A stretch of 64,000 bases of DNA, taken from positions 16,928,001 to 16,992,000 of the forward strand of contig CP086569.2 of the NCBI GenBank assembly GCA_009914755.4, given 5' to 3'. The position numbers are program-made. Position 1 is the first letter of the stretch. Each line of letters begins with the position of its first letter. The DNA is from the human T2T-CHM13v2.0 reference genome, Homo sapiens. Below, piece after piece: positions 21,001 to 27,000 of this stretch.

Positions 21001-24000
21001 CTAAATACCATTAGGGGGCAATTTCCCTGATTGTCCTGCCCACTGAGTGGGCCAGCTGGCTCAAAGTTTAGTTAATGGAGTTAGGGTAAACAGACTTAAC
21101 TGGGGAAGCCTCTATTACCCCTAGTATTTACCCTGTGACCTAATGCTCTAAGGTAAAAACTGGCTGCCTTCAGCCTGTTCAATCATTTCAAGCTATGTGA
21201 CCTCTCAGCCTTCCAAAATGTTTGTGACTATTCCTTATAACTTTCCTTAATATTTCTCTTTAATATTTCTGCCACCATCCTGAATGAATCCCAACATTCT
21301 GCTAGCTTCAAATTTGTTTGCTTTTGCTTCTCTTCTTCTAATTGTGATGTAAAGGTGTCAATTTTAGATCTTTCCAGGTTTCTGATGTGGCCATTTAGTG
21401 CTATAAATTTCCCTCTAAACAGCTGTGTCCCAGAGATTCTGGTACATGGTCTCTTTGTTCTCATTGGTTTCAAAGAACTTATTTATTTCTGCCTTAATTT
21501 CATTATTTACGCAGTGGTCATTCAGGAGCAGGTTGTTCAATTTGTACATAGTCGTGCAGTTTTTGAGTTAGTAATGGCCTCCCAAAATGTCTACATCCGA
21601 AAGCTAGAAGGTGTGAATGTGTGGCATAACCTGGCAGAAAAGACTATGCAGATGTGATTAATAATCCTGAGATGTGGAGACAACCCTGGATTATCTGGTA
21701 CTAATGTACTCACAAGAGATTTGTTGTTGTCATTGTTGCTCTTGTTTGAGACCTTGTCTCACTATTTTGGCCATGCTGGGGTACAGTTGGGCAACCATGG
21801 CTCATTGCATCTTCACACTTTCATACTCAAGCTATCCTCACCCCACAGCCTCCCAAATAGCTGAGACTATGGATACCTGTCACTATGCTCAGCTAATTTT
21901 TTATTTTTTGCAGAGATGGCATTTTGCTATGCTGCCCAGGCTTGCTTTCACTCTTAAAACAGACCCATGTCCTTCAAGGCTCCTCTGTGAAAAATGACAC
22001 TGGTTCTTAACTGATTCATTAGCTTTTCAGGCTAAGTCATCAAAAGAGGAAACCCACTGCTTTATTGTCCCTAATGCCTCATCTTGCTGGGTGAACATTA
22101 AAAGAAACATTTACAGTTGTGGATAAGCTTTTTGATGTGCTGCTGGATTTGATTTGCCAATATTTTATTGAGGATTTTTGCATCAATGTTCATCAGGGAT
22201 GTTGGCCTGAAAGTTTTTTTGTTTGTTTGTTTGTTTGTTTGTTTTTATTGTGTGTCTGCCAGGTTTTGGTGTCAAGATGACGCTGGCCTCATAAAGTAAG
22301 TTAAAGAGGAGTCCCTGTTTTTCTATTGTTTGGAATAGTTTCAGAAGGCATGTTACCATCTCCTCTTTGTACCTCTGGTAGAATTCTGCTGTGAATTTGC
22401 TTGGTCCAGGGAATTTTTTTGGTTGATAGGCTATTAATTACTGCCTCAATTTCAGAACTTGTTTTTGGTCTATTCAAGGATTAGCCTTCTTCCTGGTTTA
22501 GTTTTGGGATGGTGTATGTTTCCAGGAATTTATCCATTTCTTCTAGATTTTCTAGTTTATTTATATAGAGGTATTTACAGTATTCTCTGATGATAGTTTC
22601 TATTTCTGTGGGATCAGTGGTGACATCCCCTTTATCATTTTTACTGTATCTATTTGATTATTCTCTCTTTTCTTCTTTATTAGTCTGGGTAGCAGTCTAT
22701 CTATTTTTGTTAATCTTCTCAAAAAAAACAGCTCCTGGTTCATTGATTTTTGAAGAGATTTTATCTCTCTAGCTCCTTCAGTTCTGCTCTGATCTTAGTT
22801 ATTTCTTATCTTCTTCTAGCTTTTGAATTTGTTTGCTCTTGCTTCTTTAGTTATTTTAATTCTAATATTAGGGTGTCAATTTTAGATCTTTACCACTTCC
22901 TCCTGTGGGCATATGGTGCTATAAATTTCCCTCTAAACACTGCTTTTAGCTGTGTCCCAGAGATTGTGGGAGGTTTTGACTTTGTTCTCATCAGTTTCAA
23001 AAAACTGTTTTATTTCTGCCTTAATTTTGTTATTTACTCAGTAGTCATTCAGGAACAGGTTGTTTTGTTTCCATGTAGTTGTGCAGTTTTGAGTGAGTTT
23101 CTTAATCCTGAGTTCTAATTTTTTTGCACAGTGGTCTGAGACACTGTTTGTGATGGATTCCATTCTTTTGCATTTGATGAAGAGTATTTTTCCTCGAATT
23201 ATGTGGTTAATTTTAGAATAAGTGTGATGTGGTGCTGAGGAGAATGTATATTCTGCTGATTTGAGGTGGAGGTTCTGTAGATGTCTATTAGATTGGCTTG
23301 GTCCAGAGTTGAATTCAAGTCCTGAATATCTTTGTTAATTTTCTGTCTCGATGATCTTTCTAATATTGACAGTGGGGTGTTAAAGTCTCCCACTATTGTT
23401 GAAGGTTGAGTCTCCCACTATTATTGGTGTCTAAGTCTCTTTGTAGGTCTCTAAGAACTTGCTTTATGAATCTGGGTGCTCCTGAATTGAGGGCATATAT
23501 ATTTAAGATAGTTGGCTCTTCTTGTTGCATTGATCCCTTTGCCATTATGTAATGCCCTTCTTTGTCTTTTTTGATCTTGTTGGTTGAAAGTCTGTTTTAT
23601 TAGAGATTGTCATTGCAACCCCTGCTTTTTATTGCTTTTCACTTCGTAAATATTCCTCCATCACTTTATTCTGAGCCTATGTATATTGTTCCACATGAGA
23701 TGGGTCGCCTGAGTACACCACACCAATTAGTCTTTATTATATTTATTTATTTATTTATTTATTTATTTATTTATTTATTCATTCATTCATTTATTTATTT
23801 AGAGATGGAGTCACTCTGTAGCCCAGGCTGGAGTGCAATGGTGCAATCTCTGCTCACTTCAAGCTCCGCCTCCTGGGTTCCTGTCATTCTCCTGCCTCAG
23901 CCTCCTGAATAGCTGGGACTACAGGTGCCTGACACCCTGCCTGGCTAATTTTTTGCATTTTTCGTAGGGACAGGGTTTCACCATGTTAGCCAGGATGGTC

Positions 24001-27000
24001 TCGATCTCCTGACCTCGTGATCGACCTGCCTCGGCCTCCCAAAGTGCTGTTACTACAGGCATAAGCCACTGCGCCTGGCCCACACCAACTGGTCTTGACT
24101 CTTTATCTAATTTGCCAGTCTGTATCTTCTAATTGGGTCATTTATTGTATGTATATTTAAGGCTAATATTACTGTGTGTGAACTTGATCCTGTCATTATA
24201 ATGCTAGCTGGTTATTTTGCTCCTTAATTGATGGAGTTTCTTGATATTGTCAATGTTCTTTACAATTTGGTATGTTTTCACAATGACCGGTACCAATTTT
24301 TCCTTTCCATATTTAGTGCTTTCTTTGGGAACTCTTGTGAGGCAGGCTTGGCGGTGACAAAATCTCTCAGCATGTGCTTGTCTGTAAAGGATTTTATTTT
24401 TCCTTTGCTTATGAAGCTTAAGTTTGTCTGGATATGGAATTCTGCGTTAAAAATTATTTTCCTTAAGAATGTTGAATATTGGCCCGCCACTGTATTCTCT
24501 CTTGTAGGGTTTCTTCAAAGAGATCTGCTGTTAGTCTGACTGGCTTCTCTTCATTCATGGGATGCAAGTCTGGTTCAAGGTATGCAAATCAATAAACATA
24601 ATCCATCACATAATATAACCAATGACAAAAACCACATCATTAGGTCAATAGATGCAGAAAAGGCCTTTGATAAAATTCAGCACCCCATCATGCGAAAACC
24701 TCTAAGTAAACTAGCTATTGATGGAATGTATTTTAAAATAATAAGAGCTATTTATGACAAACCCACAATCAATATCACACTAAATGGGCAAAAGCTGGAA
24801 GCATTTCATTTGAAAACCCGCACAAGACAAGGATCTTCTCTCTCACCACTCTTATTCAACATCATATTGGAAATTCTGGCCAAAGCAATCAGTCAAGAGA
24901 AAGAAATAAAGGGTATTCAAACAGGAAGAAAGGAAGTCAAATTGTCTCTGTTGGCAGGTGACATGACTGTATATTTAAAAATCCCCATCATCTCAACCTC
25001 AAATCTCCGCAAGCTGATAAGCAACTTCAGCAAAATCTCAGGATACAAAATCAATGTGCAAAAATCACAAGCATTCCTATACATACACCAATAATAGACC
25101 AACAGAGAGCTAAATCATGAGTGAACTCTCATTCAAAGTTGCTACAAAGATAATAAAATACCTAAGAATACAACTTACAAGGGATGTGAAGGACTTTCTC
25201 AAGAAGAACTACAAAGCATTGCTCAAGGAAATAAGAGAGGACACAAGCAAATAGAAAAATATTCCATGCTCATGGCTAGGAAGAATCAATATTGTGAAAA
25301 TGGGCATACTGCCCAAAGTAATTTATTGTTGTCCCCATCAAGATACCATTGACTTTCTTTATAGAATTAGAAGAAAACGACTTTAAATTTCACATGGAAC
25401 TGAAAAAGAGCTCATATAGACAAGACAATCCTGATTTAATAAATGGTGTTGAGAAAACTGGTTAGCCATACTCAGAAAAATGAAACTGGACTCCTTTATT
25501 ATACATTATACAAAAACTAACTCAAGGCAGATTAAAGACTTAAACATAAAACCTAAAACCATGGAAACCTTAGAAGAAAGCCTTGGCTATACTATTCAGG
25601 ACATAGCCATGGGCAAATATTTCATGGCTAAAACAACAAAAGTAATTGCAACAAATACCAGAATTGACAAATGGGATCTAATTAAATGAAAGAGCTTCTG
25701 CACAGCAAAAGAAACTATCATCAGACTGAACAGGCAACCTATAGAATGGTAGAAAATTTTTGCAATCTATCCATCTGAAAAAGGGTAAATAACCAGAACC
25801 TACAAAGAACTTAAAGAAATTTTCAAAACAAACAAACAAACAATGCCATCAAAAAGTGGACGAAGGATATAAACATACTCTTCTCAAAAGAAGACATTTA
25901 TACAGCCAACAAACATATGAAGATAAGCTCATCGTCACTTGTCATTATAGAAATGCAAATCAAAGCCACAATAAGATATCATGTCACACCAGTTCGAATG
26001 GTGATCATTAAAAATTCAGGAAACAACAGATGCTGAAAAGGATTTGGAAAAATAAGAATAGTTTCACACTGTTGGTGGGAGTGTAAATTAGTTCAACCAT
26101 TGTGGAAGACAGTGTGGAAATTTTTCAAGGATCTGGAACTAGAAATACCATTTGATCCAGCATTCCATTACTGGATATATATCCAAAGGATTATAAATCA
26201 TTTAACTATAAAGACACATGCACAGGTATGTTTACTGCAGTACTGTTCACAATAGCAAAGACTCGGAACAAACACAAATGCCCATCAATGATAGAATGGA
26301 TAAAGAAAATGTGTCATGTATACATCATGGAATACTATGCAGCCATCAAAAAGGATGAGTTCATGTCTTTTGCAGGCACATGGATGAAGCTGTAAGCCAT
26401 CATTCTCAGCAAACTAACACAGGAACAGAAAACCAAACATGGCATGTTCTCACTCATAAGTAGGAGTTGAACCATGAGAACACATGGACACAGGGAGGGG
26501 AACATCACACAATGGGGCCTGTCCAGGAGTAGGGGGCTAAGGTAGGGATAGCATTAGGAGAAATACCTAATGTAGATAGTGAGTTGATGGGTGTAGCAGA
26601 TCACCATGACACGTGTATACCTGTGTAACAAACCTGCACATTCTGCATATGTATCCCAAAACTTAAAGTATAATTTAAAAAGTAAAAAAAGAAGCATTTA
26701 CCAATGACCAAACTTTATCCTGTAATCAATTGTTTATATCTAAACTGAGGAGTTTGGCGTCCTTTCTGATTTTTGTTTAGCTATTTTTCCAAACTGACAT
26801 GCTATTTACATATCCTAACTCATCTTAAAAAGTTGTTTCAGATGTGACTAAAGAAAAGAAAAAAGTCTCAAATATCAATGAAAGATTGCAAATATTAGCA
26901 TGCAGTTTATATTCAACCACTTTTGAACTATAAACCAAAGTGGCAATTTCTTGTAGTTCAACCTAGAAATAATTTATTAACTTAGAACTCACTTGGTGTT

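What the first reader, a model, noticed from the sequence alone, without database searches (positions are those of the whole stretch)
22100..26701. Textbook twin-priming L1 insertion: 5' segment inverted, joint gap of about 13 bp, 15-bp TSD
The left block (22117-24552) is the reverse complement of L1 from ORF1 C-terminus through the ORF2 RT region. The right block (24553-26686) is direct L1 from ORF2 ([10 protein letters not shown]) to the 3' end. In L1 coordinates the outer end of the inverted block (…[10 protein letters not shown]) and the start of the direct block are separated by only about 13 nt (tgatcaagtgggc missing). The composite is flanked by AAAAGAAACATTTAC / AAAAGAAGCATTTAC. This is the expected signature of one retrotransposition event resolved by twin priming, not two independent L1s. 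A younger Alu (23737-24080, 16-bp TSD) later landed in the inverted arm.
Basis: partly seen in the sequence, partly recalled or inferred. Interest (0 to 1): 0.5.

Follow-up and report, generated by a model that had tools for sequence, protein, structure and literature searches.

The report
Old 5'-inverted (twin-primed) L1 insertion
This is one dead, ancient LINE-1 retrotransposon copy whose front half was pasted in backwards during insertion; this is a well-known and very common outcome of L1 integration in primate genomes, so the locus is ordinary.

Summary
Window 22117-24552 is antisense L1 (ORF1p aa 245-338, spacer, ORF2p aa 1-561), interrupted by a minus-strand Alu. Window 24553-26686 is sense L1 (ORF2p aa ~566 to the 3' UTR and a short A tail). 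Three other L1 copies in the window span the joint. Against them, the outer end of the inverted arm (…CCACAA) and the start of the direct arm ((CTT)CATCC…) are 12-15 nt apart (10-15 under one alternative reading). The composite is flanked by AAAAGAAACATTTAC / AAAAGAAGCATTTAC (14/15). Only 1 of 3000 random flank pairs from the window matches as well. The target site is a perfect L1 endonuclease site (TTTT/AA on the bottom strand). The inner joint has a 3-nt microhomology (CTT). Both arms are equally diverged from L1HS (14.0% and 14.9%). The inverted arm has no 3' end or poly(A) of its own, and the immediate flanks are not L1. A single twin-priming event is therefore by far the best explanation. 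"Textbook" overstates it slightly: 2 unexplained nt (AG) lie at the 5' junction, there is no clear 5' microhomology, and the direct arm has a ~210-nt internal deletion. 5'-inverted L1s make up roughly 10% of human L1 copies and 18-31% of recent insertions, so this is already known and of low interest.

The parts
22100..22114 (.). Left copy of the 15-bp target-site duplication, AAAAGAAACATTTAC. It is preceded by TT, so the bottom strand reads TTTT/AA, the L1 endonuclease consensus.
   Evidence: Sequence. 14/15 identical to 26687-26701. Empirical frequency of such a match is 1/3000.
22115..22116 (.). Two nucleotides (AG) between the TSD and the inverted L1 arm that match neither the target nor L1. 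They are either extranucleotides added at the second priming site or the result of later mutation (for example a 1-nt insertion of G).
Evidence: Alignment to in-window L1 copies.
22117..23734 (-). Inverted L1 arm, distal part: antisense ORF2 from codon ~561 (…[11 protein letters not shown]) down to codon ~38. It contains a (GTTT)8 microsatellite at 22213-22244 and a 25-bp tandem duplication at 23376-23439.
   Evidence: tblastn; blastn and global alignment to the L1HS reference and in-window L1s; Pfam RVT_1 positions 6-38 at the outer end; TRF.
23735..24080 (-). Full-length Alu (AluY/Sc-like) inserted later into the inverted arm at ORF2 codon ~36-40. Its (TAAA)n-type A-rich tail lies at 23735-~23801. 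It is flanked by the 16-bp TSDs 23719-23734 and 24081-24096 (14/16 identical).
   Evidence: Two tandem Metazoa_SRP sub-threshold hits on the minus strand plus Alu-derived miRNA families. At least 8 similar copies in the window. 13.3% divergence (7.0% outside CpG) from a recalled AluY consensus, covering positions 1-281.
24081..24096 (.). Second copy of the Alu TSD (CACACCAACTGGTCTT). It duplicates L1 sequence.
24097..24552 (-). Inverted L1 arm, proximal part: antisense ORF2 codons ~35-1, the inter-ORF spacer, and ORF1 codons 338-245. It ends at about L1 position 1637.
   Evidence: tblastn; Pfam Tnp_22_dsRBD hit, E=5.8e-12; alignment to antisense ORF1 of two in-window L1s.
24550..24552 (.). CTT, a 3-nt microhomology at the inversion junction. 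These bases are shared by antisense ORF1 (…GGCTTCCCTT) and sense ORF2 (GGGCTTCATCC).
   Evidence: alignment.
24553..26686 (+). Direct L1 arm: ORF2 codon ~566 (FIPGMQGWF) to the stop codon, the 3' UTR and a short degenerate A tail (~26675-26686). There is a ~210-nt internal deletion (ORF2 aa ~855-927) at about 25411-25434. Many stop codons and frameshifts; the longest ORF is 170 aa.
   Evidence: tblastn; Pfam RVT_1 positions 65-192, E=1.3e-19; alignments; ORF list.
26687..26701 (.). Right copy of the 15-bp TSD, AAAAGAAGCATTTAC.

Best explanation
This is a single ancient L1 retrotransposition event resolved by twin priming, which left a 5'-inverted, 5'-truncated L1.

Proposed sequence of events (steps are marked shown or inferred at the end):
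1. L1 endonuclease nicked the bottom strand at TTTT/AA. The T-rich 3' end primed reverse transcription from the poly(A) of one L1 RNA. This cDNA became the direct arm, L1 position ~3686 to the 3' end.
2. The top strand was cut 15 nt downstream. Its 3' end (…CATTTAC) annealed inside the same RNA near position ~3672 and primed a second cDNA towards the RNA 5' end. This became the inverted arm, running from ~3672 back to ~1637 in ORF1.
3. The two cDNAs were joined at a 3-nt microhomology (CTT). The 12-15 nt of RNA between the two priming and stopping points were lost. The staggered target cuts were filled in to give the 15-bp TSD.
4. Later, an Alu inserted into the inverted arm. The element then decayed by ~14% substitutions, small indels, a ~210-nt deletion and microsatellite growth.

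The element has no function today.

Shown: the anatomy, the L1 coordinates, the TSD, the endonuclease site, the microhomology, the equal divergence of the arms, and the nested Alu. Inferred: the order of the enzymatic steps, which is taken from the published twin-priming model.
For: - Opposite-strand L1 arms with ORF1p/ORF2p coordinates 245-338 plus 1-560 (minus strand) and ~566-1273 (plus strand) (query proteins validated against PDB LINE-1 chains).
- The joint gap is 12-15 nt when measured against two contiguous in-window L1 copies and the L1HS reference.
- The RT domain (Pfam RVT_1) is split between the arms.
- The 15-bp TSD (14/15) flanks the composite only; such a match occurs in 1/3000 random flank pairs.
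- The target reads TT|AAAA, that is TTTT/AA on the bottom strand.
- There is a 3-nt microhomology at the inversion junction.
- The arms are equally diverged from L1HS, 13.98% against 14.90%.
- The arms share no inverted repeat, so there is a gap and not an overlap.
- The flanks are not L1.
- Published data fit. 46% of 5'-inverted L1s have the two cDNA ends within 20 bp of each other, and the median TSD is 13 bp with quartiles 10-15 (PMC12016303). TSDs of 5'-inverted L1s peak at 14-16 bp, and microhomology at the inversion junction is common (PMC2912911).
Against: - Two nucleotides (AG, 22115-22116) at the 5' junction match neither target nor L1, and no clear microhomology is visible there. In young insertions only 3.9% of 5'-inverted L1s carry 5' extranucleotides, and about 95% show 5' microhomology (PMC2912911). 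In an element ~14% diverged this detail may simply be mutated.
- Equal divergence of the arms is necessary but weak evidence. An unrelated neighbouring L1 (18209-21555) is also 13.9% diverged.
- No curated subfamily call (RepeatMasker/Dfam) could be made and no orthologous empty site could be obtained.
- The nucleotide L1HS reference was recalled from memory. It was validated only through its translation: 1262/1275 aa identical to the PDB-validated ORF2p, with no frameshift.
- Both arms, at 2.0 and 2.1 kb, are longer than the germline medians of 751 and 571 bp. This is unusual but within the known range.
Confidence: 0.93

Rival explanations
1. Two independent L1 insertions, either adjacent or nested (a plus-strand L1 landing next to or inside an older minus-strand L1), that happen to abut.
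For: L1 is dense here: at least five other L1 pieces lie in the 64-kb window, including an independent minus-strand L1 of the same divergence only ~550 bp away.
Against: - The inverted arm has no 3' UTR or poly(A) and ends in mid-RT exactly at the TSD.
- The minus-strand L1 does not continue on either side of the composite. There are no ORF1 aa 1-244 hits to the right and no ORF2 aa >561 hits immediately to the left.
- L1 coordinates abutting within 15 nt would be expected in roughly 0.5% of random pairs. This figure is my estimate (about 30/6000), not a computed result.
- The only TSD brackets both arms together.
Confidence: 0.03
2. An ordinary 5'-truncated direct L1 (positions ~1637 to the 3' end) inserted first, and its 5' 2 kb was later flipped by a DNA-level inversion with a small deletion.
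For: The end product (same-age arms, a single TSD, a small loss at the joint) would look nearly identical. The 2 unexplained nt at 22115-22116 could be a repair scar.
Against: One inversion breakpoint would have to fall exactly (within 2 nt) at the L1/TSD boundary. There are no inverted repeats that could mediate such an inversion. Twin priming produces this geometry directly, and it occurs in 18-31% of new L1 insertions.
Confidence: 0.03
3. An assembly or reading artefact: the inversion joint is a mis-join of two L1 copies.
For: None specific to this locus. L1-rich regions are prone to mis-assembly in principle.
Against: The matching TSDs, the precise complementarity of the L1 coordinates and the microhomology joint would not be produced by a random mis-join.
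Confidence: 0.01

Closest known systems
5'-inverted L1 insertions generated by twin priming (Ostertag & Kazazian 2001 model, as described in PMC2912911 and PMC12016303)
   Same: Inverted 5' segment plus direct 3' segment with poly(A). The segments come from adjoining parts of one L1 RNA with a small gap (12-15 nt). A single 15-bp TSD flanks the whole. The target is a TTTT/AA endonuclease site. There is microhomology at the inversion junction.
   Different: There are 2 unexplained nt and no clear microhomology at the 5' (second-primer) junction. The arms are longer (2.0 and ~2.1-2.35 kb) than the medians reported for polymorphic germline insertions (751 and 571 bp). The element is old and decayed, with a nested Alu and an internal ~210-nt deletion.
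Simple 5'-truncated L1 insertion (standard TPRT)
   Same: Endonuclease site, TSD, poly(A) tail, truncation short of the 5' UTR (here in ORF1 at ~nt 1637).
   Different: The 5' 2 kb is in the opposite orientation.
Nested transposable-element insertions (TE-in-TE)
   Same: The Alu at 23735-24080 is a true nested insertion, with its own 16-bp TSD inside the L1 arm.
   Different: The two L1 arms themselves are not nested. Neither arm continues on the far side of the other, and only one TSD pair exists for both.

Membership tests
LINE-1 (L1PA-type primate L1) | Encodes ORF1p and ORF2p (EN, RT, C-terminal domains) collinear with reference L1, followed by a 3' UTR and an A tail. | tested here: met
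   tblastn to PDB-validated human ORF1p/ORF2p covers ORF1 aa 245-338 and ORF2 aa 1-1273 across the two arms. Pfam RVT_1 and Tnp_22_dsRBD hits. 83.6-84.6% nucleotide identity to the L1HS reference.
Twin-priming / 5'-inverted L1 insertion | Two L1 segments in opposite orientation. The 3' segment is sense and ends in poly(A); the 5' segment is antisense and lacks its own 3' end. | tested here: met
Twin-priming / 5'-inverted L1 insertion | The TSD-proximal end of the inverted segment and the start of the direct segment map to adjoining L1 positions (small gap or overlap). | tested here: met
   Gap of 12-15 nt (TGATCAAGTGGG[CTT]) against two contiguous in-window L1s and L1HS. 46% of published cases fall within 20 bp.
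Twin-priming / 5'-inverted L1 insertion | One TSD pair flanks the whole composite, with none around either segment alone. | tested here: met
   15 bp, 14/15 identical. 1/3000 random flank pairs reach this. Neither arm has a flanking repeat of its own in the direct-repeat search.
Twin-priming / 5'-inverted L1 insertion | L1 endonuclease target (TTTT/AA on the bottom strand) at the poly(A) junction. | tested here: met
   The pre-insertion site reads …CATT|AAAAGAA…, so the bottom strand is TTTT/AA.
Twin-priming / 5'-inverted L1 insertion | Microhomology at the inversion junction. | tested here: met
   CTT is shared by antisense ORF1 and sense ORF2 at 24550-24552. It is short, so this is weak evidence on its own.
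Twin-priming / 5'-inverted L1 insertion | Microhomology, and no extranucleotides, at the 5' junction where the top-strand end primed on L1 RNA. | tested here: inconclusive
   AG at 22115-22116 matches neither the target nor L1. If G22116 is a later 1-nt insertion, the junction would have a 1-nt microhomology and the gap would be 10-13 nt. This cannot be decided in a 14%-diverged copy.
Twin-priming / 5'-inverted L1 insertion | Both arms are of the same subfamily and age. | tested here: met
   13.98% against 14.90% substitution divergence from L1HS (13.3% against 14.4% outside CpG). The right/left ratio is 1.07, against about 1.14 in a contiguous control L1. No curated subfamily library was available.
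Twin-priming / 5'-inverted L1 insertion | The orthologous empty site shows both arms arriving together. | not testable with these tools
   Exact-match scans for the reconstructed empty site and for the inner joint found nothing in the metagenome or prokaryote genome collections. No primate genomes are available here.
Alu SINE | A ~280-bp dimeric 7SL-derived element with an A-rich tail and a TSD. | tested here: met
   Two tandem Metazoa_SRP hits below the gathering score, on the minus strand. Aligns to positions 1-281 of a recalled AluY consensus, 13.3% diverged. 16-bp TSD, 14/16 identical.

The most novel reading that the evidence does not exclude
The 5' junction is genuinely non-canonical: the second (top-strand) primer was extended after two untemplated nucleotides were added and without any microhomology to L1 RNA. 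Alternatively, the inverted arm was copied from a second L1 RNA molecule or was flipped after integration. Either way, this locus would be a rare mechanistic variant of L1 5' inversion and not a standard twin-priming product.
Probability: 0.06. Interest if true: 0.15.

Novelty: already known. Interest (0 to 1): 0.08.

Why it matters
It matters little beyond correct annotation. The two opposite-strand L1 blocks and the Alu should be counted as one L1 insertion event plus one nested Alu event, not as two L1 events. 5'-inverted L1s are a well-documented product of L1 integration: about 10% of human L1 copies, and 18-31% of lineage-specific or polymorphic insertions (PMC2912911; PMC12016303). One more decayed example adds nothing mechanistic. 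It is a clean worked example with long arms. It also shows that the fine junction hallmarks (5' microhomology, absence of extranucleotides) cannot be read reliably in copies about 14% diverged.

Tried and rejected
1. I scanned the metagenome and prokaryote genome collections for the reconstructed empty site (AACATTAAAAGAARCATTTACCAATGACC) and for the unique inner joint. All four scans returned zero hits, so no ortholog or independent copy of the locus was obtained.
2. The original twin-priming paper (PMC311219) is not held in the library. The model is cited through PMC2912911 and PMC12016303.
3. Pfam scans of several short decayed translations (EN fragment, C-terminal segment, aa 468-526) gave no hit. 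Only RVT_1 (twice) and the ORF1 dsRBD-like domain were recovered. A first Pfam call failed because of an in-frame stop codon.
4. I considered whether the inverted arm belongs with the neighbouring minus-strand L1 at 18209-21555. I rejected this: the two overlap in L1 coordinates (ORF2 aa 247-560) and are only 75-78% identical.
5. I considered a nested L1-in-L1 structure. I rejected it because neither flank continues the L1.
6. I looked for an overlap (duplication) between the arms. None exists.
7. A precise subfamily assignment (L1PA number) was not attempted, because no consensus library is available. Equal divergence of the arms is only a weak same-age test, since an unrelated neighbouring L1 has the same divergence.
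Full report
**What is in the sequence**

I read window 21900-26900 directly. A self-BLAST of 22100-26701 against the whole window showed that both blocks are copies of a repeat present several more times in the window:
- a plus-strand, near full-length copy at about 5500-10614 ('ref1');
- a minus-strand copy at 18209-21572 ('ref2');
- a minus-strand copy running off the window start ('ref3', 1-2096).

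The left block matches these in the opposite orientation to the right block. The AT skew flips sign at about 24500, as expected for A-rich L1 sense strand on the right and antisense on the left.

**Identity and L1 coordinates**

I wrote out human ORF2p and ORF1p from memory and checked them against the Protein Data Bank. ORF2p matches LINE-1 ORF2p chains (8UW3, 9HDO and others) over residues 1-1275 with only scattered differences, and ORF1p matches 2YKO.

tblastn with these proteins against the window gave the following:
- On the minus strand, ORF2p aa ~560 lies at the left edge (22101-22226) and the hits descend to aa 1 at 24196.
- Also on the minus strand, ORF1p aa 338 to 245 follows at 24263-24546.
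- On the plus strand, ORF2p aa ~566-1273 lies at 24538-26461.

Pfam recognises three pieces:
- RVT_1 profile positions 6-38 in the last 42 codons of the inverted arm;
- RVT_1 positions 65-192 in the first part of the direct arm, so the joint cuts the RT domain in two;
- the L1 ORF1 dsRBD-like domain at the inner end of the inverted arm.

I also recalled an L1HS nucleotide sequence. It translates without frameshift to 1262/1275 of the validated ORF2p. In L1RP-like numbering (ORF2 ATG = 1991, from memory), this reference places the inverted arm at about 1637-3672 and the direct arm at about 3686/3689-6032.

**The joint**

ref1 and ref2 are contiguous through this region and read …AAGCTTATCCAC(A/C)A TGATCAA(G/C)T(G/T)GG CTTCATCCCT….
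- The reverse complement of the left block ends …AAGCTTATCCACAA. It then continues CT + GTAAATGTTTCTTTT, which is the TSD.
- The right block begins (CTT)CATTCATGGGATGCAAG.
- At the inner joint, antisense ORF1 in ref1 and ref3 reads …GCTTCCCTT|TGTGGG, and sense ORF2 reads GGG|CTTCATCC. The trinucleotide CTT (24550-24552) is therefore common to both sources.

The L1 sequence absent from the composite is TGATCAAGTGGG (12 nt), or 15 nt if CTT is credited to the inverted arm. If G22116 is a later 1-nt insertion, the inverted arm extends 2 nt further and the gap is 10-13 nt. The two arms share no inverted repeat, only 20-30-nt chance matches. This is therefore a gap and not an overlap.

**TSD and target**

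The left copy is 22100-22114 AAAAGAAACATTTAC and the right copy is 26687-26701 AAAAGAAGCATTTAC, with one transition difference. I took 3000 random pairs of 30-nt and 40-nt flanks from the same window at comparable spacing. Only one pair reached a 15-nt match with at most 1 mismatch, and six reached 13 nt or more.

The reconstructed empty site …GAACATT|AAAAGAARCATTTAC|CAATGACC… has TTTT/AA on the bottom strand. This is the preferred L1 endonuclease site (PMC2912911). A short degenerate A tail (about 26675-26686) precedes the right TSD.

The sequence outside the TSDs has no similarity to any L1 in the window, nor to ORF1p or ORF2p. Neither arm therefore continues beyond the composite.

**Same age**

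Substitution divergence from the L1HS reference is as follows.

| Element | Mismatches / columns | Divergence | Outside CpG |
|---|---|---|---|
| Inverted arm | 283/2025 | 13.98% | 13.3% |
| Direct arm | 316/2121 | 14.90% | 14.4% |
| ref1 | 206/4390 | 4.7% | 4.2% |
| ref3 | 103/1373 | 7.5% | 7.0% |
| ref2 | 386/2770 | 13.9% | 13.5% |

The difference between the two arms is not significant (z about 0.8, my calculation). The right/left ratio of 1.07 resembles that of the contiguous control ref1, about 1.14 from the bin table.

ref2 has the same divergence although it is a separate element. It overlaps the inverted arm in L1 coordinates at only 75-78% identity. Equal divergence is therefore a necessary but weak test, and the structural evidence carries the argument.

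**The nested Alu**

The Alu occupies 23735-24080 on the minus strand.
- Rfam gives two tandem Metazoa_SRP matches below the gathering score (23965-24079 and 23800-23940), plus Alu-derived miRNA families.
- The element aligns to positions 1-281 of a recalled AluY consensus at 13.3% divergence, or 7.0% outside CpG.
- It has a (TAAA)n-type tail.
- It is flanked by CACACCAATTAGTCTT / CACACCAACTGGTCTT, 14/16 identical.

Removing the Alu and one TSD copy restores collinear L1 (one HSP of 2081 columns).

**Other decay**

- A ~210-nt deletion of ORF2 aa ~855-927 at about 25411-25434, between short similar motifs (AATCCT… and ATTCCCT…).
- A (GTTT)8 expansion and a 25-bp tandem duplication in the inverted arm.
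- No ORF longer than 170 aa.

**Mechanism**

The anatomy is what the twin-priming variant of target-primed reverse transcription produces. One cDNA is primed from the poly(A) on the nicked bottom strand. A second cDNA is primed internally on the same RNA by the cleaved top strand. The two cDNAs are then joined at a short complementarity (model as summarised in PMC2912911, and PMC12016303).

Published distributions fit this locus:
- 46% of 5'-inverted insertions have the two cDNA ends within 20 bp of each other.
- The median TSD is 13 bp, with quartiles 10-15.

Two details are atypical:
- There are 2 nt of unexplained sequence and no visible microhomology at the 5' junction. Extranucleotides occur in 3.9% of young 5'-inverted L1s, and about 95% of them show microhomology there.
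- Both arms are longer than the germline medians of 751 and 571 bp.

In a copy this diverged, the first detail may well be mutational.

**Rivals**

- Two independent or nested L1s. This is rejected for four reasons. The inverted arm has no 3' end or poly(A). Neither arm continues across the other. The only TSD brackets both arms. Abutting coordinates would be a coincidence of roughly 0.5% (my estimate).
- A post-integration inversion. This would need a breakpoint exactly at the L1/TSD boundary, and there are no mediating repeats.
- Mis-assembly. This would not create matched TSDs and complementary coordinates.

**Comparison and novelty**

This is a member of a long-known, very common class. 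About 10% of all human L1 copies are 5'-inverted, and about 31% of human- and chimpanzee-specific L1 insertions are (PMC2912911). For polymorphic and somatic insertions the figure is 18-22% (PMC12016303). The locus is already explained, and its only value is for annotation or illustration.

**What could not be done**

No RepeatMasker/Dfam subfamily call was possible. No orthologous empty site could be found: scans for it and for the inner joint in the available collections returned nothing. The original 2001 paper is not in the library.

Noticed in passing
window 5502-10614 (+): Near full-length, comparatively young L1 ('ref1'). tblastn covers ORF1p 1-338 and ORF2p 3-1275, and the element is 4.7% diverged from the L1HS reference. 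ORF2 changes frame near 8140-8158, so it is not intact. I used it as an internal reference spanning the joint.
   Followed up: partly
window 1-2096 (-): Minus-strand L1 running off the window start ('ref3'): ORF2p aa 2-340 and ORF1p, 7.5% from L1HS over its ORF1-C-terminal/ORF2 part (window 1-1400). It lies head-to-head with ref1. The ORF1p match is only ~48% identical despite the low nucleotide divergence measured over that ORF1-C-terminal/ORF2 part.
   Followed up: no
window 18209-21572 (-): An independent minus-strand L1 ('ref2': ORF2p aa 247-1173, 13.9% from L1HS) about 550 bp left of the finding, in the same orientation as the inverted arm. It overlaps the inverted arm in L1 coordinates at only 75-78% identity, so it is not part of the twin-priming event.
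   Followed up: yes
window 4065-4341, 17325-17749, 27296-27761, 33360-33734 (also 10800-10879): An unidentified interspersed repeat family with several 71-78% identical copies. Two pieces flank ref1 on either side, which suggests ref1 inserted into one copy.
   Followed up: no
window 27529-27616, 29132-29256, 28697-28755: (GATG)n and (GGAT)n microsatellites, and a perfect 27-bp x 2.2 tandem repeat (AAATTCCTTTAAATGCAAATGAAGAAG), downstream of the finding.
   Followed up: no
window 25411-25434: A ~210-nt internal deletion in the direct L1 arm (ORF2 aa ~855-927) between short similar motifs (AATCCT… / ATTCCCT…). It cannot be told whether it arose during reverse transcription or after integration.
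   Followed up: partly
window 22213-22244 and 23376-23439: A (GTTT)8 microsatellite grown from the A-rich ORF2 stretch, and a 25-bp x 2.6 tandem duplication, both inside the inverted arm.
   Followed up: partly
window 32170-32987 (-), 34626-34712 (-), 62676-62909 (-): Further 3'-terminal L1 fragments on the minus strand. In addition, at least eight more Alu-like copies (for example 14191-14471, 35341-35620, 46136-46421, 61697-62114, 62926-63164), which fits a primate genomic region.
   Followed up: no
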